The notes beneath the pieces were generated by a model, which saw nothing but the letters and a program-made list of their open reading frames with translations, did no database searches and was not told the origin of the DNA. This document shows, one piece after another, positions 1 through 32,684 of a stretch of DNA of 32,684 nt. The DNA comes from a virus. Lineage: Duplodnaviria > Caudoviricetes. Made by a program: the position numbers and the translations under genes. The first letter of the stretch is position 1. Each line of letters opens with the position of its first letter. Where the stretch lies: positions 1-32,684 of the IMG/VR virus record IMGVR_UViG_3300013120_000186. One strand, written 5' to 3'.

Positions 1-119
1 CTATTCAGCGTGAACAATGTGTATCCCTCTCTTGCTATTCTTCACCCACGCCGCTCCGGTTATTCCCAGCCGGTATCCATTGTATGATATGGCTGGATTT
101 TTCTTCAGTTTATATCCGC
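1..119. repeat. Exact terminal direct repeat, copy 1 (circular contig overlap)
   Basis: 1-119 reads identical to 32566-32684. Confidence 0.97.
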
Positions 120-153
120 AAATCGTCATCCATAAATATCGCAACATCAACAT
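1..153 (-). CDS. Small hypothetical protein, 50 aa (MLMLRYLWMTICGYKLKKNPAISY...VHAE), below the ORF-track cutoff
   Basis: Manual translation: ATG at 153 overlaps the TAA of the upstream ORF (TAATG); TAG at 1-3. Confidence 0.5.
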   Translation of the reverse strand: MLMLRYLWMTICGYKLKKNPAISYNGYRLGITGAAWVKNSKRGIHIVHAE

Positions 154-416
154 TATCCACTCTCCTCTTCTCTCTCATATACCAGTTCCGGCTTTCCATC
201 TATTCTACCTCTGTAAATAGTGTGACTGATACCGTGTCCGTGATGTGGACGGAGTTCGATGAGACACATATCTCCTCCGGCACTCTTATCTTTCCAGATA
301 GACACCACCACCTTGCCATCCCAACTGGCCGCCTCCACTACCAATCCGCTCTTGGCTGAGCCGCACCGGCTGGCTTCTCCTCTGTTACCCTTTACAATCC
401 CTCTAAATGCAGCCAT
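153..416 (-). CDS. Hypothetical early protein, 87 aa
   Basis: GGAGG RBS; TAATG coupling to the upstream gene. Confidence 0.75.
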   Translation of the reverse strand: MAAFRGIVKGNRGEASRCGSAKSGLVVEAASWDGKVVVSIWKDKSAGGDMCLIELRPHHGHGISHTIYRGRIDGKPELVYEREEESG

Positions 417-625
417 TATTGACCCTCCTTTATTTTTGTAAACTCCTCTAAACTTCTATCCATCCTATTAAAGAACCTCTGCACACTCCGCATATCCGGT
501 TCACTCATCTTTATTACATCTGTTGCCCCTTGCTTATGGGCTCGCAATTCTCCAGTGTCGTCACTGTTTAGTGCTATATCTATATTCACACCATCACCTA
601 TCCATATCTGTCGCATCTGTTCCAT
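416..625 (-). CDS. Hypothetical early protein (likely start MEQMRQ at 625)
   Basis: GAGGAGGAG RBS then TAATG overlap at 625. Confidence 0.7.
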   Translation of the reverse strand: MEQMRQIWIGDGVNIDIALNSDDTGELRAHKQGATDVIKMSEPDMRSVQRFFNRMDRSLEEFTKIKEGQ

Positions 626-843
626 TACTCCTCCTCTCCAAGCATCCATTTATAGACACTCAAAATATTTTCGTCTTTGTCAATCATTGCCAGAATATCC
701 TCCATAGTTTCCAAAGTTATTCTCAATGAGTGTTTGTTCAAGGTGTCCATTTTATCCTTTGCGTACCGGAGTTTTTTATGATTTCTCTTTATCCGCTCCA
801 TTGCTGCCATCATTGCTTCTCTGGAGTGATTTTTTCTTTCCAT
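625..843 (-). CDS. Hypothetical helical protein, 72 aa; possibly the 3' part of a frameshifted gene starting at 883
   Basis: ORF fits the operon but has a weak RBS at 843; see the finding on the 10-bp duplication. Confidence 0.6.
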   Translation of the reverse strand: MERKNHSREAMMAAMERIKRNHKKLRYAKDKMDTLNKHSLRITLETMEDILAMIDKDENILSVYKWMLGEEE

Positions 844-848
844 ATTTA

Positions 849-870
849 CTGCTCTCTTCTGCTCTCTTCT
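849..870. repeat. 10-bp tandem duplication (CTGCTCTCTT x2.2)
   Basis: ctgctctctt ctgctctctt ct read directly. Confidence 0.9.
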
Positions 871-879
871 CCTGCTTTG

Positions 880-996
880 TCATTTCAGCTCTCCTCTGTT
901 TTGAGTATTATTACGCTCTCTGCTCTCGCACCGATTAACACCCCATAAACACCTCCTCTGCTGTCTTTGGGTATATCCCCATATATTTCTATTCAT
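880..996 (-). CDS. Small hypothetical peptide, 38 aa (MNRNIWGYTQRQQRR...)
   Basis: GGAGG RBS upstream; stop overlaps the ATG at 883 (ATGA). Confidence 0.4.
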   Translation of the reverse strand: MNRNIWGYTQRQQRRCLWGVNRCESRERNNTQNRGELK

Positions 997-1023
997 TATG
1001 TTCCCTCCGGTCTCTCGCAACAC

Positions 1024-2334
1024 TTATTCACCTCCCTTTGTTTCCGGAGATATAAGGAACATCGCAATGTCCACAGCCAAATCACCCAGAGCGGACTGAA
1101 ACTGACTGGAGCAATCGTGATAGCCAAGATGATAGTGGATTGTCTCGTGCATCATCGTGGACAGCGTCTGTTTCCGGCTCTGGAGTATTTTATTACTGAC
1201 CTTGATATACTTCTGATATACAGCCGCTCCGCAGGTTGTCCCCTCATCAAATTCCGTCACTCTTACATCCTTAATTTTTCTTCCAATTACCGCTTCTATA
1301 ATTTCCCTGCTCCACTGGAGGTTCTTGCGCTCTGCCAGTGTTAATGTATCCTTAGCAATCCGGCGGTCTGCCGCCTCATAAGATACACAGTCAGTGTCTT
1401 TTGGCAGAGCAGCTTTCAGCCACTCCACTTCTGTCTGGATGACTTTGTATCTGTTGTATTCCGCTCTGACAGTTGCGTCACCTCCGGTGGCCACGCAGAT
1501 TTTCTTAGTATCATAATATTTGGTCAGCCGGTTCAACCAAGTTCTGGGGTGCTTATATTCCCAATCCATATATCTGATTTTGTTCTCAAAAGTCTCTCTG
1601 TTTTCTGCCGCTGCCTCAATCAGCCGGTCAATGAACAAGTGGTCATCGCCAGCATCATATCTGCTCAACATTATCCGGTATATCTGGTGCTCAATAGCAG
1701 TCTCTGAAACTTCTCCAGTTATGGGGTTGGCACGCTCTATATTCAGATTGTATCCCACCGGTGAATCAATCCGACAGGTGAATATTCCCTTGATGAAAAT
1801 ACAACCGGAATAATCCACACGGTCATTGCCGGCTTTGCCTGTGATGAGATACCGCTGTCTGAAGTTATGGTAATTAGAAAATCCCAGAAAGTTTATTCTG
1901 TAATTTTTCTCTATTCCTTTAATGATGATTTTAGTTCCATTATACCGGTTGGCCAGCGGTGAATACTTGATTACCAGAATTTGAGTGTCAAACATTTCTT
2001 TCAGTTCCGGTTCCAATTTGAGTTTGTTGGTGTAAACTGTGACTGACTTTCCCTCTCTGAGAAGAGTGAGAAAAGCAAATTTCATACCCTCACCAAATTT
2101 GCCCACGGAGGTAATACCGTCTTTGCTGCTCTCACCGATGAGCAGGTGCCTCAGTTCTATGCCTCTGCCTTTGTCTCTGATTTTCTGTACTTTTGTTTCC
2201 GCATCATAACTCCACTCCACGCCACCAGCGTCAATAGCATTCTGTGTGAGTTCTCTCACCGCATCCCACTCAGTCCATTCACTCCGGTATTTTGTGGAGA
2301 CTGGATATTCAATTCTGCCTTTGTCCTTGTTCAT
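1024..2334 (-). CDS. GHKL (HATPase_c/MORC-like) ATPase fused to a C-terminal HEXXH zincin-like domain
   Basis: RELTQNAIDA (N box), DKGRGI (G1), GKFGEGMK (G2), NGTKIII (G3); C-terminal TMMHETIH; AGGAGG RBS. Confidence 0.85.
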   Translation of the reverse strand: MNKDKGRIEYPVSTKYRSEWTEWDAVRELTQNAIDAGGVEWSYDAETKVQKIRDKGRGIELRHLLIGESSKDGITSVGKFGEGMKFAFLTLLREGKSVTVYTNKLKLEPELKEMFDTQILVIKYSPLANRYNGTKIIIKGIEKNYRINFLGFSNYHNFRQRYLITGKAGNDRVDYSGCIFIKGIFTCRIDSPVGYNLNIERANPITGEVSETAIEHQIYRIMLSRYDAGDDHLFIDRLIEAAAENRETFENKIRYMDWEYKHPRTWLNRLTKYYDTKKICVATGGDATVRAEYNRYKVIQTEVEWLKAALPKDTDCVSYEAADRRIAKDTLTLAERKNLQWSREIIEAVIGRKIKDVRVTEFDEGTTCGAAVYQKYIKVSNKILQSRKQTLSTMMHETIHYHLGYHDCSSQFQSALGDLAVDIAMFLISPETKGGE

Positions 2335-2372
2335 TGTTTCCTCCTCTGTTTGTGTATGTTCCTTTCAAATAG

Positions 2373-2448
2373 TAACATAACACGAGGACATATATAATGT
2401 CAAGCCCCCTTTCAGATAGTGGCTATACACCACCCTCGTGTTTTGTTA
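2373..2448. repeat. 15-bp inverted repeat (14/15) bracketing the promoter
   Basis: TAACATAACACGAGG (2373-2387) versus CCTCGTGTTTTGTTA (2434-2448). Confidence 0.8.
2374..2403 (-). promoter_or_regulatory. Sigma70-type early promoter
   Basis: Minus strand TTGACA-18 bp-TATGTT with extended TG, 40 bp upstream of the GHKL start. Confidence 0.65.
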
Positions 2449-2962: not shown

Positions 2963-3059
2963 TTCCTCCACTACCTCCGGAGTGAAAACTGTCATTAATC
3001 CCACCTATACCCACGATAATAAATCAACCGTTCAGAAGCAAATCTGCGATTTTTGGAAG

Positions 3060-3177
3060 TACCCCAGAATGCTCATAAACCCATTTTTTATGGCGATAGT
3101 GCGGTTCAACCCCATAAGTGAAACAAAATCTATTCACCCACTCACAAAGATTGGCATATGATGTGTTTCTCCAATTT
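3060..3177. repeat. Dispersed 118-bp direct repeat, copy A
   Basis: Ungapped hand alignment to 24389-24506 gives about 93/118 identity, with exact blocks TACCCCAGAATGCTCATAAA and CAACCCCATAAGTGAAACAA. Confidence 0.92.
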
Positions 3178-15578: not shown

Positions 15579-16493
15579 TTATGTAAGCACGCTGTATCTC
15601 TGATATCCAGCAGTCTCATCAGTTGCTACACGGTCACGACAATCACGCAGAATAAACTTAGTGCCTGCTGGGTCAATTAAAACCTCTTTGGCTGTCTTGG
15701 TCAACTTAGTATTCCGCACGGTGTACTGGAATGATGGAGCATTCTGCGAGTTCGCAGGTGAGCGGTAAAACATCCAGCAATATCCGGTTCCCCAGATTTG
15801 AGCCATACTGCTATCTTTCCGCTTGGCTGCACTATCGTACTGAGCCAGCCCCACGTGAATTTCAGGCACACCCATCCAGTTAGCAATCTCCGTACCGTCA
15901 GCAAGTTTAGAGCTGCCACCGGCCATCCGCTGGTCAGCAACAAACTCTTGAAGAAACAGGAATACATCCGGAGATACTACGCAGACATTTGGCAATCTTC
16001 CCACGCTGGTAAGGATGGTGGATTTCATCGTGGTAATATCAGCCGCTGGGTCGCCACTGGCGGCATCCCATTTTGTTCCGGGAGTTCCCTTGTTAGTGAA
16101 GTTAGTACCGGTGGTCATCCAGTCAGCCACTTCCAGTTCCTGTTCTATCTGCATACTTTCCTGCAAATCTTCCATACCGTGAGTAACAAGAGATATAGGC
16201 AAATCACTCTGCAATTCTATCTCCTCCGGTATGAATACAGAACCCTTATGAACCTCGCAGGAGAATGATATTGTGCTGACATCACTATCCACTGCGGTTG
16301 CTGGTGAATATGCTCCGGTTTTGAAGTTCAAATGTTTCTTATGTTTTGTGCCAAACTTTGGAATATATCCGTTGCTGGAAGTAGTGTTAATCACCGGTGC
16401 TATCTTATCCCAAATATAGAGTTCATTGCGATATGATAGAGCCGTCTTTGTTACGATATTAGTCAGTTGGACATCTGTCAAATTTATAGCCAT
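15579..16493 (-). CDS. Major capsid protein (HK97 fold)
   Basis: LSYRNELYIWDKIAPVI, KWDAASGDPAADI, GRLPNVCVVSPDVF motifs; position after the decoration and scaffold genes. Confidence 0.88.
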   Translation of the reverse strand: MAINLTDVQLTNIVTKTALSYRNELYIWDKIAPVINTTSSNGYIPKFGTKHKKHLNFKTGAYSPATAVDSDVSTISFSCEVHKGSVFIPEEIELQSDLPISLVTHGMEDLQESMQIEQELEVADWMTTGTNFTNKGTPGTKWDAASGDPAADITTMKSTILTSVGRLPNVCVVSPDVFLFLQEFVADQRMAGGSSKLADGTEIANWMGVPEIHVGLAQYDSAAKRKDSSMAQIWGTGYCWMFYRSPANSQNAPSFQYTVRNTKLTKTAKEVLIDPAGTKFILRDCRDRVATDETAGYQRYSVLT

Positions 16494-18005: not shown

Positions 18006-18205
18006 TATTTACTCTTCTCATAAAAGATACCGTGGTCACCTTTGTAATGCTGATTGTGCTTTATTCTATTGTTCAATATTTCCTGTGGGATGCCCTCTGG
18101 GTAAGCATCGCATCTTAACAATGGTACCCTCTTGCTGTTTTGTCTGAAGTGCTTACAAGTAGAACATTGACTGACTTTCCCAATTATATCTTCTCTTTGC
18201 CTCAT
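18005..18205 (-). CDS. Small Cys/His protein, 66 aa; candidate immunity or partner of the ADP-ribosyltransferase
   Basis: ATG at 18205 overlaps the portal-ART stop (ATGA); CSTCKH...CDAYPEGIP...H. Confidence 0.7.
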   Translation of the reverse strand: MRQREDIIGKVSQCSTCKHFRQNSKRVPLLRCDAYPEGIPQEILNNRIKHNQHYKGDHGIFYEKSK

Positions 18206-21117: not shown

Positions 21118-21157
21118 AGAACCTCCTCCACATACTATACACAATTATTCCCTGTCG

Positions 21158-22600
21158 TCAAGCATAGACAATATCATTGGGTGATATACGCTCCGTAGGT
21201 TCATATACAGCCATTGCTACTGCATCCGCTCTATCCGGTGACCTGCCCAGTGTTTTCTTGATTTTATCCTTAGCAACTATTTTGATTTTACCGGCTGAAT
21301 TCAGCTCCCATTGTATTGACAGCAACTCCTCTCTTAGCATTGGGTCATCCGGCAGCGTCAGAGTTCCCTCTTGGAGCCGGTCACGGAGGTTCCAATATGA
21401 CTCCGCTCTCTTGTTTAGGTATGTACTGTCCACAGCCCTCTCTGAAGCCATATACCTCTTAGCATATATGCCCTGTTCCGTCAACCGTGCATACACTCCG
21501 GCACCCACCCCAATACTATCCACAGAGACAGGAACGCTCCCAGCATTAGAAGCATTTATAACACGCCCCACTACCTCCATAAGATTAGTGCCTGTATATG
21601 TTTCAATTTTCTCTATTCCAGAACCGGTATAGAACGCCAGCACTGTTTCATCATCCCCATACTCCGCAACATCCACCCCAATATGCTTCACCACCGGCTC
21701 TTCTCCTCCGGTACTCTTCACCGCTCTTTCCAACCACGATAACTCTATCAATCTGCCCTCAGATACTCCAGCAAACTCTCCAAGGATATGCTGACGATAT
21801 ACAGCACTGTCCTCACCCCACTGCTGTTTCCTCTTCTCCAAATACCTCTCATCCATTGAACCCTCTCTGATAGCATCCTCCACTGTTATCCGCTGTACAG
21901 CCCAATCGGTGTACCCTCTCTTTCCGGAACAAATGTCATAGAACCTCCCCACCGGCATAGATGGAGTGCTGACTGCGATAAACTGCGTGGTGCCAGCGGT
22001 TCCAATACCCTCTAACGCATCCCAGATGGCTGGTGGTACTCCCTTTGCCTCATCTATCAGCACCAGTATCTCGTCAGCGTGAGCACCCTCTAATTTATTG
22101 GGGTCAGAACACGATGCTGAGAACGCTTTGCCATAATCCAACGCCAGAGATTTTAATTGAAGTTGCTTGCTATCGTATTCAGTCCCGATGATATCCCACT
22201 GGAGTTCCCTGCTCCATTTATGAACCTCTTGCCAGAGGTACTGCGTCAACTGTAGCCACGATGATGCCACGGTCAGTATTTTCCACTGCTGTCTCCTCTT
22301 CTCTCTGGTAAGAGCATACCAGTGTATCAGCCACGCCAGTGGTGCCGTCTTGCCCACCCCTCTGGGTGCGTATATTGCGACACGCTTGTTGTTGGCTACT
22401 GCCTCCAACATCCTCTCTTGATAATCACGCATTTCAACACTGGGCAGGAACCTCCGGACAAATTCCGCTGGATTAGCATACACCTCGTCAGACAGGAGTG
22501 CCCCACCATTATTCTTCACTAATCTCAAGCAGTCTGCTAACTTCTGTTTCTGATGTTCCGATAATTGAAGCAACAGCGGTGATGATTTCACGGTCAACAC
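21158..22600 (-). CDS. terL: Terminase large subunit
   Basis: RDYQ Q-motif, APRGVGKT Walker A, LIDEA Walker B, VSTP coupling motif, IGVDVA and RSPDRADA nuclease motifs. Confidence 0.96.
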   Translation of the reverse strand: MLTVKSSPLLLQLSEHQKQKLADCLRLVKNNGGALLSDEVYANPAEFVRRFLPSVEMRDYQERMLEAVANNKRVAIYAPRGVGKTAPLAWLIHWYALTREKRRQQWKILTVASSWLQLTQYLWQEVHKWSRELQWDIIGTEYDSKQLQLKSLALDYGKAFSASCSDPNKLEGAHADEILVLIDEAKGVPPAIWDALEGIGTAGTTQFIAVSTPSMPVGRFYDICSGKRGYTDWAVQRITVEDAIREGSMDERYLEKRKQQWGEDSAVYRQHILGEFAGVSEGRLIELSWLERAVKSTGGEEPVVKHIGVDVAEYGDDETVLAFYTGSGIEKIETYTGTNLMEVVGRVINASNAGSVPVSVDSIGVGAGVYARLTEQGIYAKRYMASERAVDSTYLNKRAESYWNLRDRLQEGTLTLPDDPMLREELLSIQWELNSAGKIKIVAKDKIKKTLGRSPDRADAVAMAVYEPTERISPNDIVYA

Positions 22601-23036
22601 CTCCCTCCTCTATTCTCACTGTCCTGTCCGGCATCCCTGTGGCCTGTGCCTCTATCTCCAAGCCCAACCGGAGTAAGTTCATTGCTAACTGTGGTGTAAC
22701 TTCTCCAGCATCAAATGCCTCTTTCAATCGTGCTGCAGTATGCTTTTGTAGCCACTGCCCTATGCGGAGCCGCTTCACCCAGATGTCTGCCTCTTTCTGT
22801 ACTGCTTTCTCTCTTGCCACCGTTGACACACGGTTCCGATACTCATACCTCTGTGCCACCCAATTCTTTAGCATGGAGTGTTTTCTCATAGTGGAGACAG
22901 CCGGTATTTTTTCCGGTGGTAATGACTGCGGCAATAACACCTCTCGCATATATTCAAAAGTGACCTCATCATCCCCTGTGATATACGCTTCTGCTATAAA
23001 TGCCCAGTCAAATTGTTTCTTATTATTCCTGCCCAT
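22509..23036 (-). CDS. terS: Terminase small subunit (likely start MGRNNKK at 23036)
   Basis: Immediately upstream of terL; DWAFIAEAYITG HTH-like start, NWVAQR, helical body; GAGGAG RBS. Confidence 0.75.
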   Translation of the reverse strand: MGRNNKKQFDWAFIAEAYITGDDEVTFEYMREVLLPQSLPPEKIPAVSTMRKHSMLKNWVAQRYEYRNRVSTVAREKAVQKEADIWVKRLRIGQWLQKHTAARLKEAFDAGEVTPQLAMNLLRLGLEIEAQATGMPDRTVRIEEGGVDREIITAVASIIGTSETEVSRLLEISEE

Positions 23037-24387
23037 TCTCTTCTCCTCTGCCCTCACGATACATATAGACAATATTACCATCGTCATCTATTCCGTGAAC
23101 AGATACCGGTTCACCAAAGTATCGCACCGGTGAATATCCGCTCTTGGGATTGTTCCACTGGAATTGTAGCCACTGGTCAACGCTCCTGCCACGGTGAATT
23201 GCCCTGCTCTTAGAGGTGGAGCGTGCTACATTCATCCCATTCGCATCTGGGGCATTTACCTCTCGGAATATATCAGCCGCATCACCGGATATATCAGACC
23301 AATACATCAGCGGTTCCTCACCCCTCCGGTGCCGTTGTTTTGCTATCATCAACGCTTCTGTGAATTGTCCCTTTGATACTTTCCAATCCGGAGGTACTCC
23401 ACAACAGCAGGTAAAATCTGATTTTCCCTTATGATGAGCGTCACTGCAATAGAACCTCATCCCCAGCCGGTGTGCGAGTTCCTTTATGCCGGCAATAGTA
23501 TCTGCCTTTAATGCGTAGTTTAACCGCATATAACCGTGTTGCTTGGGTGAGTGTGTGCGATAGTATTCATACATATCATACCCCATCACCCTGCTCATAG
23601 TTGTGTATCTTTCCTTGAGTTCTGGCTGTGCCCTCCCCTCTAAACAAAAATATTCCACCGTGACACTATCCGCTCCTGCTCTCTTGGCCGCAATTATGAG
23701 GTCTCTCCAGTCGTCAGACAGCCCCACAATATAAGGTCTCAACCGCAGTGTCACGTGGGCACCGGTATCTGCCAGCCGCTTGATTGCTTTCAACCGCTCC
23801 TGCGGTGAGTCAACTCTATCCTCAATGGCTCTGGCTTTGATTGGGTCAGCGGTGATGATAGATATTTTCCAGTGCCAGTTATGTGCGTGTGCCCTCACCA
23901 GTTCCATATACCTCTCGTCACGTGTCCACCATACTCCCTTTGTGGAGATTGACAGCGGATAATCGTGCTGGTCAAATATCTCTAATAACCGGAGTGAGAC
24001 ACCGTGGGTTCTTTCAAATTCGTCTAGTGGGTCAGCCATTCCACCCCACTGCAATGTTCTCCGGTTCCGGAGATAATTCAAAAACTCTTTATCTGCTTTC
24101 CGCACCCTGCCAATGTATTTTCCCTCAGACAGATACAAAAGCCGGTTCACACTTTCTGGGTTTACAGATGACACTTTATGCTCTTGATAATCGGTTCCCA
24201 TTGTTGGTGCTTTCTGAAAAAATGCGAAGCAATAAAGACAATTATATGAGCACACGGAATAAGTATCAAATGTCATCGGCATAGAGCAATCGCACACCTC
24301 ACCGCTCCATCTTGGTGAGCAGTAATTCTGGTCAATATTTTCACTGATTTTTGTTGTTTTCATTCTCTGCTTTCCGCTCTTTCCCAT
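23023..24387 (-). CDS. Radical SAM enzyme 2 (spore photoproduct lyase-like), DNA modification cassette
   Basis: DTYSVCSYNCLYC (CxxxCxxC), GGMADP, ISTKG, LRLRPYIVG, C-terminal CCCG. Confidence 0.9.
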   Translation of the reverse strand: MGKSGKQRMKTTKISENIDQNYCSPRWSGEVCDCSMPMTFDTYSVCSYNCLYCFAFFQKAPTMGTDYQEHKVSSVNPESVNRLLYLSEGKYIGRVRKADKEFLNYLRNRRTLQWGGMADPLDEFERTHGVSLRLLEIFDQHDYPLSISTKGVWWTRDERYMELVRAHAHNWHWKISIITADPIKARAIEDRVDSPQERLKAIKRLADTGAHVTLRLRPYIVGLSDDWRDLIIAAKRAGADSVTVEYFCLEGRAQPELKERYTTMSRVMGYDMYEYYRTHSPKQHGYMRLNYALKADTIAGIKELAHRLGMRFYCSDAHHKGKSDFTCCCGVPPDWKVSKGQFTEALMIAKQRHRRGEEPLMYWSDISGDAADIFREVNAPDANGMNVARSTSKSRAIHRGRSVDQWLQFQWNNPKSGYSPVRYFGEPVSVHGIDDDGNIVYMYREGRGEENGQE

Positions 24388-24562
24388 TTACCCCAGAATG
24401 CTCATAAAGCCATTTTTTATGCCCGTAGTCAATAGCAACCCCATAAGTGAAACAATTTATATTCAACCACTCATTAGATTTGCTATATGCTGTACTTCTC
24501 CAGTTTTTTTTATTTATTTTTTGAAAATCCCATAAATAAAAGGTACTTCTTGAAGTTTTCAT
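24341..24562 (-). CDS. Doubtful 73-aa ORF spanning repeat copy B
   Basis: ATGA overlap with the upstream gene supports it; AT-rich hairpin content and a non-coding paralogous copy argue against it. Confidence 0.3.
   Translation of the reverse strand: MKTSRSTFYLWDFQKINKKNWRSTAYSKSNEWLNINCFTYGVAIDYGHKKWLYEHSGVNGKERKAENENNKNQ
24389..24506. repeat. Dispersed 118-bp direct repeat, copy B
   Basis: Matches 3060-3177 in the same orientation. Confidence 0.92.
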
Positions 24563-25356
24563 TCACACTCCGGTTCATCTGGAATTGCCTGTTTTAATGC
24601 CTCATAATTCACACCGGAATAAGTGTCAATTGCCTCGTGAATATCGTGAATATCCTTGCCCACATAGTAGTGACCCTTCCAGTATGATTTGAATTTACAA
24701 AGCACAGTTTCACTCTCTTGAATATTGATATTCCTGCAGTCATCCGGAGGTGCTTTGAACAGGCAGAGTTCTCTGATGATTTCATCTGAAACTGCCTTCA
24801 CCTCCTCTGGAGTTATCGGTGCTTTCCAATCCCTGTATTTAAGAAGTGCCGCCCCTTGTTTTGGGTCACGATACATAGCCAATGAAGCAGAAGAGAAGTC
24901 AACCGGATAACCTAAACACCTCTCACCCATATCACAGATTTTCCACGCAATCCAAGTACCACACATTGGTAAACTCCGGACACGCTTGGAACACTCTTCA
25001 TACTTCTGTGTCTTAAAAATCCACCGCACTATCTCCTCCGGAGTTCCGATATGGCTAAGTGCATTCACGGTTCTTACTGCTTTGGAACCTCTGAAATGCC
25101 TCCGCTCCGCTCCTCTCTTTCCTCCGGTCTGCTTTGCTATCTCTAACATTGCTCCATAATATTCATTGGGGTCATCGTAGTCGGCAATGGCCGCTGCTAT
25201 GCCCACGTGATAATAATACCAATACGCAAGGCACCACCGTGCTTTATATTCCCACGACAGTCCGGAACCGTGGAGCATATTGTACACTGGGTCAAGGTCT
25301 CCGGTTATGATGAGACGCTTTCCAAACTCCACAGGTTTGTATTTCATTTTACGCAT
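24559..25356 (-). CDS. Amino acid:DNA transferase (aGPT-Pplase2/AADT family, HhH glycosylase-like fold)
   Basis: GDLDPVY, RWCLAYW, RGAERRHFRG, GTWIAWKICDMGER, NIQESETVLCKFKS motifs, plus neighbourhood. Confidence 0.85.
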   Translation of the reverse strand: MRKMKYKPVEFGKRLIITGDLDPVYNMLHGSGLSWEYKARWCLAYWYYYHVGIAAAIADYDDPNEYYGAMLEIAKQTGGKRGAERRHFRGSKAVRTVNALSHIGTPEEIVRWIFKTQKYEECSKRVRSLPMCGTWIAWKICDMGERCLGYPVDFSSASLAMYRDPKQGAALLKYRDWKAPITPEEVKAVSDEIIRELCLFKAPPDDCRNINIQESETVLCKFKSYWKGHYYVGKDIHDIHEAIDTYSGVNYEALKQAIPDEPECE

Positions 25357-26648
25357 TTTGTCAAATCTGCTGGTGTTAACGCATTGGCTTCACCCATTCT
25401 TTTGTTTCCGCAGAGTGCTCTGCCGTTGTTATCAACGCAATAGAGACAGCCGGCTGGGTCACATTCTAACACCGGTTGCCATCTATCTTTAGTGCTTTTG
25501 CGAGTATATACCGGAACCCTCCTGCCGTGGCACTGGTCACTCGTGGTATAGTTTGGTGCTAAACTTACTCCAGTCTTATCCGTGATGTTTCCGCTCTTAT
25601 CTCTCTCATACCTATATTCATAACACAGAGACATAGTGACATCAGCCCTCCGGCACGCCGCACTGTATCTGTTCAATGCCTGTATCCTGTACGCCTCTTT
25701 AATTGTCCGGATGTGTCCGATAGTTTCTGTAAACAGCCCCTCAAAAATCTTCCCACGCTCTGGAAACAATGCTTTCATTTTCTTCACCAGTGGCTTCACG
25801 GTTGATGATACTATTTCCACGTGTTTGAATATGAGGTGATTTGCTCCCCTCTCTGCTAACATCTGTATTAACTCCTCTATATCTTCTACAGTAACTATTC
25901 CGGCAATTATCGGGTTCACCTGCACGCTCACATATATACCGGCTCTGGAATAATCTTCCACCGCTTTCAATATATCTTCCAGCGGTGATGCGAATGGTGA
26001 TATTTTACTCCATACATCACTCCTCTGCGTGTTAATACTGAATTGCATATATGAATATGGGTTCTTGGTCAAATACTCCATAGCCCACGCCGGCGGTACT
26101 CTTCTTGACAAATAGAAGATAGGCAAACCGGCTCTGATGAATACCTGCGATAATCTCTGTGTATTATGATACACCGCTTCCAGTTCTTGAAATGGCTCCG
26201 TGAATGATGAAATATACGCTCCGGAGGCAGTTCTCATCTGCGATAATTGTTTGCGTACCTTATCCGGATATTGGGGGTCAACCACTCCAACCCCTTGACT
26301 GCGATACCCTCGCACACCATTGTTGACATAACAGAAAGCACAGCGAGTAGAACAGGTGCCGCCATATGGCTGAGTGAGCAGTGCCTCTGTATAGCACGGT
26401 CTGGGTCTCACGCCCTCCGGTTCTGTCTTTCCCTTATACCATCCTCGCAATGGAATATTCTGGTCAAGTATCACGTGGGGTGTTGGCTTCATATATACCT
26501 TCATCCGCCGCCGGTTTTCCGGTGATGCACTCTGGAGCATACCTATATCCCACCACTGATATTCCCTGCCATTCTCGTCAATACCGCCTTTATGTTTGGG
26601 CACTAATTCGTTGCCCATCGGTTCTATTTTCTTCATATCACTCTCCAA
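25344..26648 (-). CDS. Radical SAM enzyme 1, DNA modification cassette
   Basis: QPYGGTCSTRCAFC (CxxxCxxC), SSFTEPF, VQVNPIIAG; extra C-terminal Cys (CHG...CDPAGCLYC...CG). Confidence 0.9.
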   Translation of the reverse strand: MESDMKKIEPMGNELVPKHKGGIDENGREYQWWDIGMLQSASPENRRRMKVYMKPTPHVILDQNIPLRGWYKGKTEPEGVRPRPCYTEALLTQPYGGTCSTRCAFCYVNNGVRGYRSQGVGVVDPQYPDKVRKQLSQMRTASGAYISSFTEPFQELEAVYHNTQRLSQVFIRAGLPIFYLSRRVPPAWAMEYLTKNPYSYMQFSINTQRSDVWSKISPFASPLEDILKAVEDYSRAGIYVSVQVNPIIAGIVTVEDIEELIQMLAERGANHLIFKHVEIVSSTVKPLVKKMKALFPERGKIFEGLFTETIGHIRTIKEAYRIQALNRYSAACRRADVTMSLCYEYRYERDKSGNITDKTGVSLAPNYTTSDQCHGRRVPVYTRKSTKDRWQPVLECDPAGCLYCVDNNGRALCGNKRMGEANALTPADLTKCVK

Positions 26649-27453
26649 TATTCCAAAACATTATTTTTGCCCTCTCTGCTATTTTATTTTCACACAGCCA
26701 CTTCCACGCTTTCAAATCGTAGTATTCATTGCACGGAAATGGACATTCAAAATCCACCGCATCCTTGTAATTGTACTTCTCATCTATGAAAGATATTCTC
26801 AACCGCTCCGGAGGTTTCAACCCACACTGCCGGAGTATATACTGCCGTGCTGATTCTCGGCTCCGTGAATACCCCATATGAAAGATAATTCTGCCGGTGG
26901 CTTTCCGCATTGTCAAGCCACGCAGTACGCCAGCACCTATAGTGCCAGAAGATATAGACACCACCCAGATATAATCGGTGAAATACTTTAGTGGCATACG
27001 CAGCACCTCTGTACAGGTTCCTGCCACTGTCTCGGATAACTTCAATGCGTTGGGCAGCATATAACTATACCGGAACCGCTCTGCTAATATTTTTTTGGCA
27101 CGGTGATAGAGTATAGCAGAGCGGCCAGCCGGCAGCGGTATCAGAACCGCTCCCAGTTTCTCTGCTCTTTCCTGCTGTTCCTGTAGTTCCGGTGAACCCT
27201 TATACACAGGATAGAACACCACTGCTTTCCGGTTCATTTTTTGGCATACATAAGAAACACCCCAGCCGGCTTTTGAGTGAAAGGTATCCAGCACCCCAAT
27301 GTACTCCTCTTTCCTCTTCTCCAGATGAGCGGCAATACCTCGCACCTTACTGAATGATGGAGCCGGTTTTGGACAGCACATATCCTCACGCTTGACTGTT
27401 ATTCCGCTGTGTACCTCTATGGGTGTATCAGTGATGATGAAATCTGATTTCAA
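26638..27453 (-). CDS. PLP-dependent enzyme (fold type II), probable DNA-amino acid decarboxylase/lyase
   Basis: TPIE...VKREDM...SKVRG (PLP lysine), SISSGTIGAG phosphate loop, YYDLKAW, FWNIG. Confidence 0.85.
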   Translation of the reverse strand: MKSDFIITDTPIEVHSGITVKREDMCCPKPAPSFSKVRGIAAHLEKRKEEYIGVLDTFHSKAGWGVSYVCQKMNRKAVVFYPVYKGSPELQEQQERAEKLGAVLIPLPAGRSAILYHRAKKILAERFRYSYMLPNALKLSETVAGTCTEVLRMPLKYFTDYIWVVSISSGTIGAGVLRGLTMRKATGRIIFHMGYSRSRESARQYILRQCGLKPPERLRISFIDEKYNYKDAVDFECPFPCNEYYDLKAWKWLCENKIAERAKIMFWNIGE

Positions 27454-27454
27454 T

Positions 27455-27937
27455 TTACCTCCGGTCTATGATTTTACTTCGTGAAAACCGGCTCGCATAT
27501 TGCGTGTACAGTCGTGTTGATTTTGTGGCAGTTCGCTTAATGTGCGGAACCGTCATTTGGGAGCCGGCGGCACGGAGCCGCTTCACACATTCTCGCAGTG
27601 GACAATATACAAGATATAGACAAATATCAAAACCGCTCCGGAATAGCCACTGAAACATCTTGTCATTAGTTATCCGGTCACCCTCCATAATGATATTATC
27701 CCACTGATTATAATTCTCGCTTAGCCACTGGCGTATATCCGGTGCGATAGCATAGTGGAGTGTATCCGTGCCCTGACACCTCCGGTCTATGATATAGTCA
27801 CCCAATAACACTGTTTTAGTGCCTGCTACCGTGTGTTTGAAAGGTTCCGTGTATAATACGACAGGGACAGACATCCAACGCTCACGCACCCACGATGTTT
27901 TGCCTGCCCCTGCCGTGCCGATAATTATGTGTATCAT
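27455..27937 (-). CDS. P-loop nucleotide/DNA kinase (type associated with hydroxymethyl-pyrimidine DNA kinases)
   Basis: GTAGAGKT Walker A, LGDY...GTDTL, IMEGDRI, RLRAAGSQ...RTATK. Confidence 0.8.
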   Translation of the reverse strand: MIHIIIGTAGAGKTSWVRERWMSVPVVLYTEPFKHTVAGTKTVLLGDYIIDRRCQGTDTLHYAIAPDIRQWLSENYNQWDNIIMEGDRITNDKMFQWLFRSGFDICLYLVYCPLRECVKRLRAAGSQMTVPHIKRTATKSTRLYTQYASRFSRSKIIDRR

Positions 27938-28569
27938 TCTGGGATATTCAACTCATCCTCATCAATCACTGTTTCACGGTTCCTGCCCTTGAATTCAAAT
28001 TTAATTCCGTGGTGTTTCAAAAACAGTTCCGCTTTTGCTTTATCCTTGAAACTCACATACACCACATACCGCTTGGCCGGTGTATCTCCGGTGATATCCC
28101 CTCCGGAACCGGAGTCACTTAAATCATCTGAATATTCTACATCCTCATAATCCCAGTCATCCAGAGATATATCAGTATCAATTCCGGTGATGGCTTCTAT
28201 TTCAATATCATCAAAACCGGTTATGAAATCATCGTCAGATATATCACCCAGAAGTGCTGACAGTTTATTCATATCCCAGTCACCAGATATTTTATTCAGT
28301 GCGAGGTTCAGTGACTTCTCCTCTGCTTCTGTGAGTTCTATCTCCACCATATCCGCTCCGGTCTCACCCAGTTCCAAAAGTGCCGACACTCGCTGATTTC
28401 CACCCACAATATTCATTGTTTTGGTATTCACGATAATCGGTTGCACCAGTCCGTAGGTGCTGATACTTTCCTTGAGTTTGTCCAACTCCTCTCGTGAAAT
28501 GTCTCGTGGGTTGTATTCTGCAATATGCACCTCATCAAACTCATACCGCTTCACTTGGATTTTCTTCAT
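27934..28569 (-). CDS. ParB/sulfiredoxin-like N-terminal domain protein (likely start MKKIQV at 28569)
   Basis: YNPRDI...LKESISTYGLVQPIIVN...IVGGNQR...LNLALNKISGDWD; acidic tail; no methyltransferase domain. Confidence 0.9.
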   Translation of the reverse strand: MKKIQVKRYEFDEVHIAEYNPRDISREELDKLKESISTYGLVQPIIVNTKTMNIVGGNQRVSALLELGETGADMVEIELTEAEEKSLNLALNKISGDWDMNKLSALLGDISDDDFITGFDDIEIEAITGIDTDISLDDWDYEDVEYSDDLSDSGSGGDITGDTPAKRYVVYVSFKDKAKAELFLKHHGIKFEFKGRNRETVIDEDELNIPE

Positions 28570-29441
28570 TTGCTCTCCTCTTTCTGGTATATAGTCAGTC
28601 CACCGCATTTACTCGTGGCAGTGAGTTTATTCCTGCTGATATACCGGTTCATTTTTTGTTCCCAGTCCTCACCTCTGAATATATGATAATTCACTTTGCC
28701 TTTGCTATCTCGTACATACACCGCTCCGGTCTGTTCCGCTCCGGAGGTTTTGGAGCCGGTCTGTATGTCTGTCTCATCTTCCCAGCCACCTCTATTCAGC
28801 CACGTGCTGGGGTGAGGTACAAATGCCCCTCCGTCCTTAGTCCACTGGTCAGTCTGTTTCCACCTCTCCACCGCTTCCATTATTATTGGTGCAATGGTAT
28901 CCAGTTTCATCCGGTTCCACACCTGTGCTGCTTTCCGTTTGCCTATCTTGCGTGGATACACCTCCCAGAATTTGGCAAATACAGCACCATAGGACACTCC
29001 TATGGCAGTTTTACTCTTCTGGGGTGTTTTAGTATGGCTGGGCTGTGTTTTGGCAGTCTCCACTGTTTCTGGGGTGTTCTTGGTGTGCCGTGCTTTCCCA
29101 GCATTAACTCTCTTGTTATGCTTTCCGGTCTGCTCCTCTCCAATCTCTACCAGCCGTGGAATAACAATAGAACCGGAACCGTGAAACAATGTACCCTCCT
29201 CCATCACCCTGCCACGCTCTAAGAGTTCTGCGAGAAGATTATTAAACACCTCCAAATCCAACCGGAGGTATGCCGCAATATCCTCGTGAGGCATATCTAT
29301 TCTGCCGGCTGTTTTCCGCACCCACGATAAACACATAAGGTCTATGAGCAAACCTCTGGCAGCAACAGAGCATAACCGGAGTTGAAGAGAAGTCATCCAG
29401 TCAATAGCATAGATGGGATACCACTGCCGGATATCACTCAC
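28566..29441 (-). CDS. Phage replication initiator (YdaU/DUF1376-like N-terminus, helical C-terminal domain)
   Basis: WYPIYAIDWM...ARGLLIDLMCLSW; FWEVYPRKIGKRKA...VPHPSTWLNRGGWEDE. Confidence 0.8.
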   Translation of the reverse strand: MSDIRQWYPIYAIDWMTSLQLRLCSVAARGLLIDLMCLSWVRKTAGRIDMPHEDIAAYLRLDLEVFNNLLAELLERGRVMEEGTLFHGSGSIVIPRLVEIGEEQTGKHNKRVNAGKARHTKNTPETVETAKTQPSHTKTPQKSKTAIGVSYGAVFAKFWEVYPRKIGKRKAAQVWNRMKLDTIAPIIMEAVERWKQTDQWTKDGGAFVPHPSTWLNRGGWEDETDIQTGSKTSGAEQTGAVYVRDSKGKVNYHIFRGEDWEQKMNRYISRNKLTATSKCGGLTIYQKEESK

Positions 29442-30159: not shown

Positions 30160-30173
30160 TGTTTGAATGTTAA

Positions 30174-30614
30174 TTAGAACGGCACATCATCATCAGCCGG
30201 CGGCGTTGGAACCTCCTGCGTGTTCTCCGGTTCCGGAGGTGTTTCACTGAATACCCAATAGGCAATTTTAGCACGCTTATTTTCATTATATGTTTCGTGC
30301 TTAATCTGTACCACTGCCTCTCTGTTTACAAACAGTTCCGGTTTGATATTACGCTTAACATTCACAGCCAGTCCACAGGCATTCATAATGCTCCCAAAAG
30401 TACGCTGGGCAAACTGATTATATACAATGTATTCCCATAGGTGCGAACCTTTGCCAGCACCATCTAACACCTTACATACCAGTACCATCATATCATTACC
30501 ATTCGCAGATACCTCTTCTGTTGCCTCCTCTATTCGCACTCTCACTTTCCCAACCGGAGGTATAGCAAATGTTTTACTCTCTGGGTCATAGGTTCCGTCA
30601 TATTCGTATGGCAT
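30174..30614 (-). CDS. DUF669-like single-stranded DNA-binding protein
   Basis: IPPVG...SANGNDMMVL...C-terminal DDDVPF tail; follows the Sak4-like gene. Confidence 0.85.
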   Translation of the reverse strand: MPYEYDGTYDPESKTFAIPPVGKVRVRIEEATEEVSANGNDMMVLVCKVLDGAGKGSHLWEYIVYNQFAQRTFGSIMNACGLAVNVKRNIKPELFVNREAVVQIKHETYNENKRAKIAYWVFSETPPEPENTQEVPTPPADDDVPF

Positions 30615-31312
30615 TATTTACCCTCACTTTCAGTTCTGATTTTTTCAAATAACGCTCCCAAATCTGCGGTGCAATATCTGTCCTCATTATACCGGTTCTT
30701 TGCTACTATCTGTTCAGTGGGTTGGAGCCGGATGAACCGCTCACCCTCGTGACCTTTCTTTGTACTGACTTCCATATGCCCCACGATGTCAAACAGTCCG
30801 CATATCTCTGGTGCTAATCTCCTGCCCATCATTGGATATGCTCGTGTTCGGATAACTCCATCACCCTGTTCCAGTTCCAGCGGCATTTCAAGTGCTGTAA
30901 CAATAACATCCATTCCGGTCTCTCTGAGGTCTCGGAGCCGCCGCATATAATCACGCATCCGGAAAGAGACAATGCCATAATCTTGGAGTGTCGGCATACC
31001 CTCATTCCTGCTCCGCTTTGCGAGTTCTATCAGCATAAACTTCTCCAGTTCCGTTGCTGAATCAAACATCACCGCTCCATACCCCTCTATTGTACTGATT
31101 TCATCAAATATATCTTTGATATTTGAAAGGTCTGAATGAATGCGTACCGTATCTATATCTTTATGCTGGAGGCACGCCACCCCCCCCTCTATATCAATCA
31201 ATAGTGGATTGTCTAATGTACCGGCGGTGCTTGTCTTTCCAACACCACTATCCCCATACAGCAATACAGTTATTCCCTTTGCTGCTATCTCATTTGTTTT
31301 CTCTATTTTCAT
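30614..31312 (-). CDS. Sak4-like AAA_24 ATPase (single-strand annealing recombinase)
   Basis: LLYGDSGVGKTS, LLIDIEGG, FDSATEL, PTLQDYG, FDIVG, AKNR. Confidence 0.88.
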   Translation of the reverse strand: MKIEKTNEIAAKGITVLLYGDSGVGKTSTAGTLDNPLLIDIEGGVACLQHKDIDTVRIHSDLSNIKDIFDEISTIEGYGAVMFDSATELEKFMLIELAKRSRNEGMPTLQDYGIVSFRMRDYMRRLRDLRETGMDVIVTALEMPLELEQGDGVIRTRAYPMMGRRLAPEICGLFDIVGHMEVSTKKGHEGERFIRLQPTEQIVAKNRYNEDRYCTADLGALFEKIRTESEGK

Positions 31313-32178
31313 CTGCCTGTCCTCTCTGTGAAATTACCCTCTCGCACCTCTGGTGTATCCTCTAAGCATATGCTATCAAAAGCACAGTCGTAAATGGAAC
31401 ACGCACTGGCGTTGGGATAATAATTCTGCTTATATTTTGCGTGCCTTATATCAGCCATTACTGCCTCTATTTCAGCCAGCCAAATCTCCTGCTGTTCCGC
31501 ATCCCTGTAAACATTATGAATTACAATGCGGTTTGTCTCGTGATACCACTGTTTTATTCTCTCAATATACTCCTCTCTGTTTTCTGATTTTTTCTGTCTG
31601 ATACTGGGTTTGAGCAGAATATTATACATAACTCCCTTCACATTATATCCGCTCTTATTCGCACCCACGATATATGCGGTGGCTTGGTCATCACGGAGTA
31701 GTCTGGTCATATACCGCTCATCAAACCTCGCAGCCGTCTTATGCTCCAACACCCACTGTTCACCAGTGGCTGTATCCTCCACGATAGCATCAATGTACCC
31801 TCGCAGCCGTCTGCCGTGTCCAATAGGCACCTCAAAATACTCCTCTATTGCCAGTATTTTATGGGCACCGATTGGATAATGAAAACACCACCGCTCTAAG
31901 CAATGAACCGCTTTGTACAACTCCACCGCATCCACCGGCTCCCCATCATCGTGCTTTTCCAGCACGGTTTTTATCTCTCCCACTGTTGGCATTCCGTGTA
32001 ATTCATCCGCACTTGCCCACTGAAGTATCTGAGCCAATCCGGTATGAACAAGTGACCCAAATCTAAATGCCGGAGCCGTCACCTGTGGTCTCAGATTTTC
32101 GTTGTAAATGAAATGGTATTTTCTCCGGCATTCTTTCCAGCACCTTATTCCACTCGCACTGATTTTCTGCATCTTCAT
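31309..32178 (-). CDS. PD-(D/E)XK exonuclease (RecB/AddB/Cas4-like with Fe-S staple cysteines)
   Basis: SASGI...CRRKY, GSLVH, GYIDAIV...EHKT, QATAY, C-terminal CSIYDCAFDSIC. Confidence 0.9.
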   Translation of the reverse strand: MKMQKISASGIRCWKECRRKYHFIYNENLRPQVTAPAFRFGSLVHTGLAQILQWASADELHGMPTVGEIKTVLEKHDDGEPVDAVELYKAVHCLERWCFHYPIGAHKILAIEEYFEVPIGHGRRLRGYIDAIVEDTATGEQWVLEHKTAARFDERYMTRLLRDDQATAYIVGANKSGYNVKGVMYNILLKPSIRQKKSENREEYIERIKQWYHETNRIVIHNVYRDAEQQEIWLAEIEAVMADIRHAKYKQNYYPNASACSIYDCAFDSICLEDTPEVREGNFTERTGR

Positions 32179-32188
32179 TCTGACCTCC

Positions 32189-32368
32189 TTATTTGCGGTA
32201 TTTCCACCGCTGAAACTCCTCTGTTTTTCTCACCATCCTCCGCACTATATTGTTCCGGCTCTCTCCAGTGCTCTTCATCATATCTTTCATAAAATGATTC
32301 AGCTCCGCATCCACCAGAAGATACCACACGATTGAGAACCGCTTGCGAGTGCTTTGTTTTGGCTTCAT
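32189..32368 (-). CDS. Ribbon-helix-helix-like regulator, 59 aa (start MKPKQS)
   Basis: AGGAGGTGA RBS; beta strand then two helices (VDAELNHFMKDMMKSTGESRNNIVRRMV). Confidence 0.6.
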   Translation of the reverse strand: MKPKQSTRKRFSIVWYLLVDAELNHFMKDMMKSTGESRNNIVRRMVRKTEEFQRWKYRK

Positions 32369-32523
32369 ATTCACCTCCTCTCTCCATTGGTAATATATAT
32401 ACATTCTCTATTTGAGCAAAGATACCTGTTTTAATGACGCTCTTGACATCTTCTCCAGTTCGCAGTATAAATACATCACACTGATATTTTGCATCAGTTC
32501 TACAACACTGCTCCTTTGTTTTG

Positions 32524-32553
32524 AGTAGAGCCGGCTGTACAGCCGGCTCTACT
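32524..32553. repeat. Perfect 30-bp palindrome
   Basis: AGTAGAGCCGGCTGT|ACAGCCGGCTCTACT. Confidence 0.95.
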
Positions 32554-32565
32554 TTTACCGGATAA

Positions 32566-32684
32566 CTATTCAGCGTGAACAATGTGTATCCCTCTCTTGC
32601 TATTCTTCACCCACGCCGCTCCGGTTATTCCCAGCCGGTATCCATTGTATGATATGGCTGGATTTTTCTTCAGTTTATATCCGC
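32566..32684. repeat. Exact terminal direct repeat, copy 2
   Basis: Identical to 1-119. Confidence 0.97.

What the first reader, a model, noticed from the sequence alone, without database searches (positions are those of the whole stretch)
1..32684. Strong genome-wide enrichment of the palindrome CCGG
Seen: by hand count about 20 CCGG in 1-2040 and about 21 in 8101-9072, against roughly 3 per kb expected from rough base composition. It occurs in different codon phases (CCG-G, NCC-GG, C-CGG) and in non-coding DNA, so single-codon bias does not explain it. It is almost never flanked as CCCGG/CCGGG (one CCGGG noticed near 16078). Phages normally deplete palindromes, so enrichment is unusual. Inference: CCGG may be the target of the modification cassette, for example a host-methylated 5mC that the radical SAM/kinase/transferase pathway elaborates, which would explain the missing precursor enzymes. 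Other options are a binding or packaging signal, or the footprint of Vsr-type biased repair at a host CCGG methylase site.
Basis: partly seen in the sequence, partly recalled or inferred. Interest (0 to 1): 0.85.

Follow-up and report, generated by a model that had tools for sequence, protein, structure and literature searches.

The report
Phage gains CCGG while purging palindromes
This marine phage has removed almost every short restriction-type palindrome from its DNA but carries CCGG about ten times per kilobase, likely because its host's methylation-linked DNA repair keeps turning near-matches into CCGG, and probably not because its own DNA-modification genes, predicted to act on thymine, target that word.

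Summary
The excess is real: 339 CCGG in 32,684 bases (3.65x base composition; 328 in genes against 160±9 in synonymous shuffles and about 205-230 after modelling avoided words). It is uniform across modules. GATC, CGCG, GCGC, CATG and CCNGG are almost absent.

The cassette link is not supported. The cassette is an M6-type thymidine pathway, and CCGG has no T. A syntenic sister phage with the same ParB and radical-SAM genes has purged CCGG (0.04). Among 80 radical-SAM relatives the median ratio is 1.1.

The genome closes into a circle and encodes no methylase. At silent sites the outer C is almost fixed (C:T 27:1 against 35:104), the inner one much less so. The likeliest cause is a host CCGG methylase with biased T-to-C repair; no host was found, so this is inferred.

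Separately, the second radical-SAM gene (fold closest to spore photoproduct lyase) stands where TET/JBP or dUMP hydroxymethylase normally stand and probably makes the missing precursor without oxygen. This scan has noted both CCGG-rich phages and that radical-SAM stand-in before, on other DNA.

The parts
1..32684 (.). CCGG, 339 copies (337 without the terminal repeat), mean spacing 97 bases, no longer consensus
1..32684 (.). Purged words: GATC 0, CGCG 0, CATG 1, GCGC 1, CTAG 2, TCGA 2, AGCT 8, ACGT 9, GGCC 14, CCNGG 1, GGNCC 3, CGNNCG 2, GANTC 18; Pro-Gly 1 against 29 expected
1..119 (+). 119-base terminal repeat, copy 1 (genome closes at 32,565 bases)
   Evidence: a 920-base contig of run X1 lies on both ends
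32566..32684 (+). 119-base terminal repeat, copy 2
16078..16082 (+). The single CCGGG/CCCGG (Pro138-Gly139 of the major capsid protein)
   Evidence: position derived from the residue numbers
27934..28608 (-). ParB N-terminal domain protein, constant left end of the modification cassette
   Evidence: Pfam PF02195 E 1.9e-7; also in the sister phage
27455..27937 (-). P-loop kinase, likely 5-hydroxymethylpyrimidine DNA kinase
   Evidence: Pfam PF18751 E 0.0026, below cut-off; PHROG 800 E 9e-10; no tblastn hit to the M6 region at E 1e-4
26638..27453 (-). PLP enzyme, homologue of M6 gp52 decarboxylase
   Evidence: 48% identity; PHROG 7093 E 1e-75
25344..26648 (-). Radical SAM 1, homologue of M6 gp53 glycinyl-thymine isomerase
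   Evidence: 43% identity
24559..25356 (-). Amino acid:DNA transferase, homologue of M6 gp51
   Evidence: Pfam PF18724 E 1e-18; 34% identity
23023..24387 (-). Radical SAM 2, candidate oxygen-independent maker of 5-hydroxymethylpyrimidine in DNA; constant right end of the cassette, next to the terminase genes
21158..23087 (-). Terminase large subunit and probable small subunit

Best explanation
The CCGG excess is likely a footprint of the host: a host methylase would mark CCGG at its outer cytosine, and repair tied to that mark would turn TCGG/CCGA into CCGG and slow its loss, while restriction presumably purged the other palindromes. Shown: the excess; its presence in all phases and modules; a far stronger C-over-T bias at the outer than at the inner position; no methylase, Tet/JBP or thymidylate-synthase gene in the closed genome; and the opposite state in the sister phage. 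Inferred: the host methylase, the methylated base, and Vsr-type T:G repair. Protection by N4-methylcytosine would shift the same ratio and cannot be told apart here. The phage's own cassette is predicted to modify thymine (ParB plus radical SAM 2 to 5-hydroxymethyluracil, then kinase, glycine transfer, isomerisation and decarboxylation to 5-aminoethyluracil, as in M6) and is probably unrelated to CCGG.
For: Silent sites, outer position: His/Asn/Tyr codons before CGG end C:T 27:1, against 9:11 before CGC/CGT (p 7e-5) and 35:104 before other C-starting codons (p 6e-13); all two-fold NNY codons give 51:2 against 108:154. Inner position: Ala/Thr before GG end A39, C88, T44, against A369, C173, T218 before non-G, an odds ratio of 2.5-5; plain selection for the site would give similar odds at both positions. 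Against codon-order shuffles the CCGG surplus per phase (+54, +89, +55) is matched by TCGG+CCGA deficits (-43, -65, -40), while CTGG and CCAG are up (+30, +20). CCGG+TCGG+CCGA is 386 observed against about 375 in the avoidance-aware null. Ala-Gly, Thr-Gly and Ser-Gly total 248 against 166 expected, so the bias reaches the proteins. No C5 or N4/N6 methylase in the genome. In 4 of 4 genome-borne radical-SAM loci with CCGG O/E of 2 or more, other contigs of the same genome match: 3.46/3.91, 2.57/2.39, 2.53/2.23, 2.01/2.06. Precedents for outer-C methylation of CCGG-core words: Anabaena DmtD rCCGGy (PMC4390886, section 3.4 part 1) and Caulobacter ScmA with Vsr-like VsrA (PMC12907096, passages).
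Against: No host was found, so neither methylase nor Vsr was seen. In toy simulations outer-C drive alone reached only CCGG 2.0-2.2 and TCGG 0.46-0.66, and outer protection alone 1.3. Reaching 3.69 needed extra retention at all positions, and no run gave the observed TCGG 0.26 with CTGG 1.5. TCG is low in other contexts too (TTCG 0.21, GTCG 0.15), and ATCGG is only mildly low (0.69), so part of the TCGG deficit may be separate avoidance. Markov and Karlin measures are only 1.29 and 1.11. The prophage-host agreement is partly circular, because genome bins are built on tetranucleotide frequency; those hosts mostly lose CTGG rather than TCGG; and the fifth pair disagreed (0.0 against 1.48 on 9.5 kb). 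A Vsr gene was found in only 1 of 5 such genomes. CheckV rates the record 43% complete despite its terminal repeats.
Confidence: 0.47

Rival explanations
1. CCGG is selected as a host-read signal (self mark, strand-discrimination or uptake-like word), and TCGG/CCGA is avoided separately as part of other restriction sites.
For: Retention at all positions gave CCGG 2.6-2.9 in toy runs. The inner position is also biased. TTCGG 2, CTCGG 7, GTCGG 8 against ATCGG 40 suggests context-specific avoidance.
Against: Needs two independent causes. No clustering by module and no longer word. Much of the gain came with amino-acid change rather than the cheaper silent route. 337 sites at 97-base spacing is far denser than the roughly one per kb of iterated palindromes (PMC4390886).
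Confidence: 0.2
2. One reading: the host makes 5-methylcytosine at CCGG, radical SAM 2 hydroxylates it, the kinase/transferase/isomerase/decarboxylase build a bulky cytosine, and the phage multiplied the sites.
For: Two of the three other phages with the full cassette plus radical SAM 2 have CCGG O/E of 2 or more (2.37, 2.02; third 1.16), against 8 of 80 radical-SAM loci overall. Thymine-containing palindromes are purged (mean O/E 0.03), whereas the M6 region keeps most of them (GATC 1.49, CATG 1.05), so thymine modification does not visibly shield them here. Phage T-dioxygenases also oxidise 5mC (PMC13229309, abstract). The transferase is only 34% identical to M6 gp51.
Against: M6 homologues act on 5-hydroxymethyluracil. 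The sister phage with ParB and radical SAM 2 has purged CCGG. 14 of 80 radical-SAM loci have O/E of 0.25 or less. Only 5 of 49 radical-SAM records carry a C5 methylase. The outer/inner asymmetry is not predicted. The sister purges thymine-containing palindromes too, so that avoidance may predate the cassette.
Confidence: 0.12
3. Passive spill-over: with GCGC, CGCG, ACGT, TCGA, GGCC, CCNGG and CCCG barred, CpG and CC/GG pairs collect in the one palindrome left.
For: Modelling 39 avoided words raises the expectation from 160 to about 205, and to about 230 with TCGG/CCGA barred too.
Against: 328 observed stays about 85-130 above every iteration. A neutral simulation with avoidance gave 0.93-1.05. 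CCGG exceeds an additive flank model 5.5-fold, the highest of 188 sequences of 10 kb or more.
Confidence: 0.1
4. Plain amelioration to a CCGG-rich host genome through shared polymerase and codon preferences, with no methylase involved.
For: CCGG-rich bacterial genomes exist, and their prophage loci match them. Other viruses reach 5.3-6.2.
Against: Single-codon preference is controlled by the shuffles. The effect is confined to one 4-mer and mostly to one position in it.
Confidence: 0.11

Closest known systems
CCGG over-representation in Helicobacter genomes (Rusinov 2015, PMC4687349; Ailloud 2023, PMC10423294; m4C methylase M.Hpy99VIII, PMC3936762)
   Same: CCGG is the one over-represented Type II site amid wide avoidance of other sites, in a restriction-rich setting; PMC4687349 offers no explanation (passages).
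   Different: There it is a chromosome that encodes the methylase, and the excess is on Karlin's measure (about 1.5); here Kr is 1.11 but the raw O/E is 3.65. Two Helicobacter phages show no excess (0.82, 0.90).
Highly iterated palindromes of cyanobacteria, especially rCCGGy of Oscillatoria PCC 10802 (Elhai 2015, PMC4390886)
   Same: A GC-rich palindrome spread genome-wide and proposed to arise by methylation-biased repair; the rCCGGy methylase marks the first C.
   Different: A bare 4-mer with no extension, W rather than R flanks preferred, about 10 per kb, in a phage with no methylase of its own.
Dcm/Vsr very-short-patch repair bias (CCWGG gain, CTAG loss in E. coli; recalled) and Caulobacter ScmA/VsrA (PMC12907096)
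   Same: T:G-to-C:G repair at a methylase word would give the one-position C-over-T bias seen here.
   Different: A different word, seen only as a footprint in phage DNA; enzymes not identified; CCWGG itself is absent here.
5-aminoethyluracil pathway of Pseudomonas phage M6, gp51-54 (PMC8989533)
   Same: Transferase, PLP enzyme and radical-SAM isomerase homologues, with a P-loop kinase.
   Different: No dUMP hydroxymethylase, dCMP deaminase or DNA polymerase; ParB and a second radical SAM flank the genes.
ParB-dependent phage thymine dioxygenases (5mYOX clade C1; O'Toole 2026, PMC13229309)
   Same: Same neighbourhood: ParB, glycosyltransferases or amino acid transferases, kinases, terminase.
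   Different: No Tet/JBP gene; an SPL-like radical SAM occupies the place. The paper's main text has no occurrence of 'radical' or 'rSAM'.

Membership tests
Highly iterated palindrome (HIP) | Palindrome over-represented genome-wide beyond codon effects | tested here: met
Highly iterated palindrome (HIP) | Word of 5-8 bases with consistent extension | tested here: not met
   Positions -3 to -8 near background; commonest 8-mer 24 of 674 strand-wise sites
Highly iterated palindrome (HIP) | Cognate methylase in the same genome | tested here: not met
   None in the phage; host unknown
Vsr-type repair footprint | Gain of the methylase word with loss of its T-for-C neighbour at one position | tested here: met
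   (outer C); TCG also low in other contexts
Vsr-type repair footprint | Host encodes a C5 methylase for the word and a Vsr nuclease | not testable with these tools
   Host not found
Vsr-type repair footprint | Size of the effect reproducible by T-to-C drive alone | tested here: inconclusive
   Non-coding toy model reached 2.0-2.2 against 3.65
Thymine-shielded restriction site | Surviving sites flanked by T on both strands | tested here: not met
   TCCGGA 59, about 57 expected from independent flanks; 120 of 337 sites have no 5' T; 27 GCCGGC
M6-type 5-aminoethyluracil pathway | Amino acid:DNA transferase, radical-SAM isomerase, PLP decarboxylase | tested here: met
   34, 43 and 48% to gp51, gp53, gp52
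M6-type 5-aminoethyluracil pathway | 5-hmdU DNA kinase | tested here: inconclusive
   P-loop kinase in the operon; weak PF18751, PHROG 800; no tblastn hit to the M6 region
M6-type 5-aminoethyluracil pathway | dUMP hydroxymethylase as precursor source | tested here: not met
M6-type 5-aminoethyluracil pathway | Modified base present in virion DNA | not testable with these tools
   No isolate or long reads; only short assembled contigs
ParB-dependent T-dioxygenase cassette | ParB N-terminal protein linked to decorating enzymes and terminase | tested here: met
ParB-dependent T-dioxygenase cassette | Fe/2OG Tet/JBP dioxygenase | tested here: not met
   No PF12851 match at E 1; all 39 ORFs scanned. 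The Pfam model misses some phage 5mYOX (PMC13229309)

The most novel reading that the evidence does not exclude
The ParB/radical-SAM-2 pair hydroxylates host-made 5-methylcytosine at CCGG without oxygen, the M6-like enzymes build an amino-substituted cytosine on it, and the phage has multiplied CCGG to one site per 97 bases, even at the cost of amino-acid changes, to coat its genome. A milder novel reading is more likely (about 0.6): radical SAM 2 is an oxygen-independent DNA thymine hydroxylase, here feeding the aminoethyl pathway rather than a sugar transferase, and CCGG is unrelated.
Probability: 0.1. Interest if true: 0.85.

Novelty: new variant of a known kind. Interest (0 to 1): 0.45.

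Why it matters
CCGG over-representation amid wide restriction-site avoidance is reported and left unexplained in Helicobacter (PMC4687349). This phage and its sister give opposite states (3.65 and 0.04) in syntenic genomes, and the bias sits mainly on one base, which makes the methylation-repair idea testable and predicts the host's methylome. If true, a host repair bias is rewriting a phage proteome. The cassette swap between the sisters (sugar transferases against the M6 enzymes, between a constant ParB and radical SAM) points to an oxygen-free route to hydroxymethyl-DNA for phages of anaerobes. One search found no paper holding four of the five terms searched for that; subscription papers are mostly outside the library.

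Tried and rejected
Host search failed. The capsid alignment found nothing in genome contigs or metagenome contigs. Terminase relatives beyond the three closest were about 43% identical or less and mostly unnamed. 201 genomes of the phylum of G056 (its locus title names a spirochaete) held CTCCGGAG at no more than about 60 per Mb, against 11 in 32.6 kb here, which names no host. The best tetranucleotide correlation of any fetched locus was 0.62.

The transferase alone found no relative in viral contigs. Radical SAM 2 has no match among 50,697 deposited phage records and none by sequence in the PDB; the Atlas gave only unnamed radical-SAM clusters.

I first read the contig as incomplete; searches corrected that. 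Run X2 holds only scattered pieces and is not used as evidence.

Rejected: single-codon bias; spill-over as sole cause; a longer hidden word and thymine shielding; inner-C drive as in Bacteroidota hosts, because CTGG/CCAG are raised here; a phage-encoded methylase; Helicobacter phages as a positive control, since they show no excess.

The plain Foldseek search against the PDB was not obtained; VIA-align was used. Supplements of the papers were not read and may hold sequence-context data for M6 enzymes and co-occurring domains for 5mYOX clusters.
Full report
**Observation.** The window holds 339, which is 3.65 times the base-composition expectation and the top 4-mer on that measure. Nearly all other palindromes with C or G are gone: GATC 0, CGCG 0, CATG 1, GCGC 1, CTAG 2, TCGA 2, AGCT 8, ACGT 9, GGCC 14, CCNGG 1, GGNCC 3. 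GTAC is near normal. The missing CCCGG/CCGGG flank is simply CCNGG and CCCG avoidance, strong enough that Pro-Gly occurs once against 29 expected. In genes there are 328 sites, against 160±9 in 300 synonymous shuffles and 131±9 in 300 codon-order shuffles, in all three phases. A Monte-Carlo null that also matched 39 avoided words gave 198-222 over six iterations, and 215-243 when TCGG/CCGA was penalised too. O/E is 3.5-4.0 in each of five module sets. Against this, measures that condition on trinucleotides give only 1.29 and 1.11, because about 60% of CCG is CCGG. There is no longer consensus and no preference for T on both strands.

**The genome.** All 39 ORFs I annotated lie on the minus strand and describe a tailed phage with an amidase and strong GGAGG ribosome sites. 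It has a 119-base terminal repeat. A 920-base contig of run X1, a marine metagenome, lies on both ends (the same length and depth in both calls, taken to be one record). The genome therefore probably closes at 32,565 bases, although CheckV estimates 43% completeness. No integrase, DNA polymerase, C5 or N4/N6 methylase, Tet/JBP or thymidylate synthase was found. Any methylation of CCGG would come from the host.

**The cassette.** The order is ParB, P-loop kinase, PLP enzyme, radical SAM 1, amino acid:DNA transferase, radical SAM 2, terminase. The PLP enzyme, radical SAM 1 and transferase are 48, 43 and 34% identical to phage M6 gp52, gp53 and gp51. In M6 these build 5-aminoethyluracil on 5-hydroxymethyluracil (PMC8989533, passages). 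CCGG contains no thymine.

**Does CCGG follow the cassette? Mostly not.** The closest relative found (L001/L160; capsid 67%, syntenic from the recombination genes to the tape measure) has ParB, two TET-associated glycosyltransferase-like genes and radical SAM 2 before the terminase. It avoids eight of the same palindromes and also CCGG: 2 in 17,039 bases, O/E 0.04. Among the best 80 of 488 viral radical-SAM-2 stretches the median O/E is 1.11; 8 are at 2 or more and 14 at 0.25 or less. Among 61 genome-borne loci the median is 0.83, with 4 at 2 or more. Among the best 80 of 88 PLP-gene loci, the 67 of 8 kb or more have median 1.13 (13 shorter loci dropped), and the 41 with thymidylate synthase have median 1.11. 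M6, Pam3 and RHph_I72 regions give 1.07, 1.26 and 1.37. These are few, possibly share host groups, and the loci are not independent.

**Where the excess comes from.** At silent sites the outer base is almost fixed: His/Asn/Tyr codons before CGG end C:T 27:1, against 9:11 before CGC/CGT and 35:104 before other C-starting codons. The inner base is less biased: Ala/Thr before GG end A39, C88, T44, against A369, C173, T218 before non-G. Per phase, the surplus over codon-order shuffles (+54, +89, +55) is largely matched by deficits of TCGG plus CCGA (-43, -65, -40), while CTGG and CCAG rise. Ala/Thr/Ser-Gly pairs number 248 against 166. This is the pattern expected if T is converted to C at the first position of CCGG on either strand, even where that changes an amino acid. 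It is inferred, not shown. TCG is low in other contexts too. Toy simulations needed both outer drive and general retention to reach 3.69, and none matched all neighbours.

**Host link.** No host was found. In the four genome-borne loci with O/E of 2 or more, other contigs of the same genome agree (3.46/3.91, 2.57/2.39, 2.53/2.23, 2.01/2.06); a fifth, CCGG-free locus did not match its small host sample. Binning by composition makes this partly circular, and three of those four loci lose CTGG (0.34-0.54), a different route. One of five genomes tested has a Vsr gene, fused to a reading frame with C5-methylase motifs. The window still had the largest CCGG-specific excess (5.5-fold over an additive flank model) of 188 sequences of 10 kb or more.

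**Radical SAM 2.** Its predicted fold (pLDDT 92) is closest to spore photoproduct lyase, Z 18.7, rmsd 3.3 over 268 residues, next hit 15.6. That enzyme acts on thymine dimers in DNA. Within 81 loci its neighbours cluster as ParB-like (69 loci, by the cluster's representative), TAGT (35), amino acid:DNA transferase (23) and kinase (17), with TAGT and kinase fusions. Among the 80 PLP loci, 43 have thymidylate synthase, 3 radical SAM 2 and 3 a Tet/JBP hit, with no overlap. Most of the 61 genome titles name gut or rumen anaerobe groups, with exceptions such as a Staphylococcus and a Pseudomonadales bin; the search patterns may favour these. ParB-dependent thymine dioxygenases sit in the same neighbourhoods (PMC13229309, abstract, section 12 and passages). 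The enzyme probably supplies the hydroxymethyl base without oxygen; this is untested. I formed this idea before opening earlier notes, but the scan had already recorded it six times, so it is not new within the scan and those notes are not independent evidence.

**Comparison with what is known.** CCGG excess amid wide avoidance is described in Helicobacter and left unexplained (PMC4687349 and PMC10423294, passages); the J99 methylase is m4C (PMC3936762, passages). Iterated palindromes and a methylation-biased repair model are in PMC4390886 (abstract, passages, first part of section 3.4). An outer-C methylase with a Vsr-like partner is in PMC12907096 (passages). PMC5889632 was read in passages. 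The E. coli Dcm/Vsr compositional effect is recalled. Searches for a phage case gave no listing that describes one; I saw titles and abstract starts only. The feature works like a methylation-repair footprint. It is not a HIP by membership, having no longer word and no methylase of its own.

**Verdict.** Observation confirmed. Cassette target 0.12; host methylation-repair footprint 0.47; selected host-read signal 0.2; spill-over 0.1; plain amelioration 0.11. A new variant of a known kind, interest 0.45.

Noticed in passing
window 23023-28608 against L160 5932-9509: Clean module swap between sister phages: kinase, PLP, radical SAM 1 and transferase here, two TAGT-like glycosyltransferases there, between a constant ParB and radical SAM 2.
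   Followed up: yes
window 18202-21144: Portal, MuF minor head domain and an ADP-ribosyltransferase-like domain (PF03496, E 5e-17) fused in one 980-residue ORF; the sister's match ends at residue 747, before that domain.
   Followed up: partly
L063, L090, L091 (G006, complete 35 kb): A radical-SAM-2 phage with four enriched palindromes (CCGG 5.3, GCGC 5.6, CGCG 4.5, GATC 2.6) and five nearly absent (AGCT, CATG, CTAG, GGCC, GTAC); it has an N4/N6 methylase and no C5 methylase.
   Followed up: partly
L271 (G258) 1-20774: A 34% GC virus with CCGG O/E 6.2 while most other CpG words are at 0.2-0.3; two N4/N6 methylase matches lie in the gene run after its PLP gene.
   Followed up: partly
L047 / L240 (G031): The one record of 49 with both radical SAM 2 and a Tet/JBP gene, about 3 kb apart on opposite strands.
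   Followed up: no
L241 3-1661 minus strand (G052): Vsr domain fused to a reading frame with C5-methylase motifs, in a CCGG-rich, CTGG- and CTAG-poor genome.
   Followed up: partly
window 1024-2334: A 436-residue ORF with a GHKL ATPase domain and a weak SprT-like metallopeptidase match; its N-terminal part matches an ORF in the M6 region.
   Followed up: no
window 2966-3144: A contig of run X1 differs from the window at several letters near 3080-3106 and then runs on unlike it after 3144; possibly a variant of the non-coding gap.
   Followed up: no
window 1-32684: Many non-palindromic words are also nearly absent (CCGAA, CGCTA, AACGA, CGACC, AGCCT, CCTGA, AACCA, CGGAAG), suggesting exposure to an unusually large set of restriction systems.
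   Followed up: partly
L161 152-2138: A third, more distant relative has an unrelated-looking radical-SAM-type ORF and a ParB-like ORF before its terminase genes; CCGG O/E 1.54.
   Followed up: no
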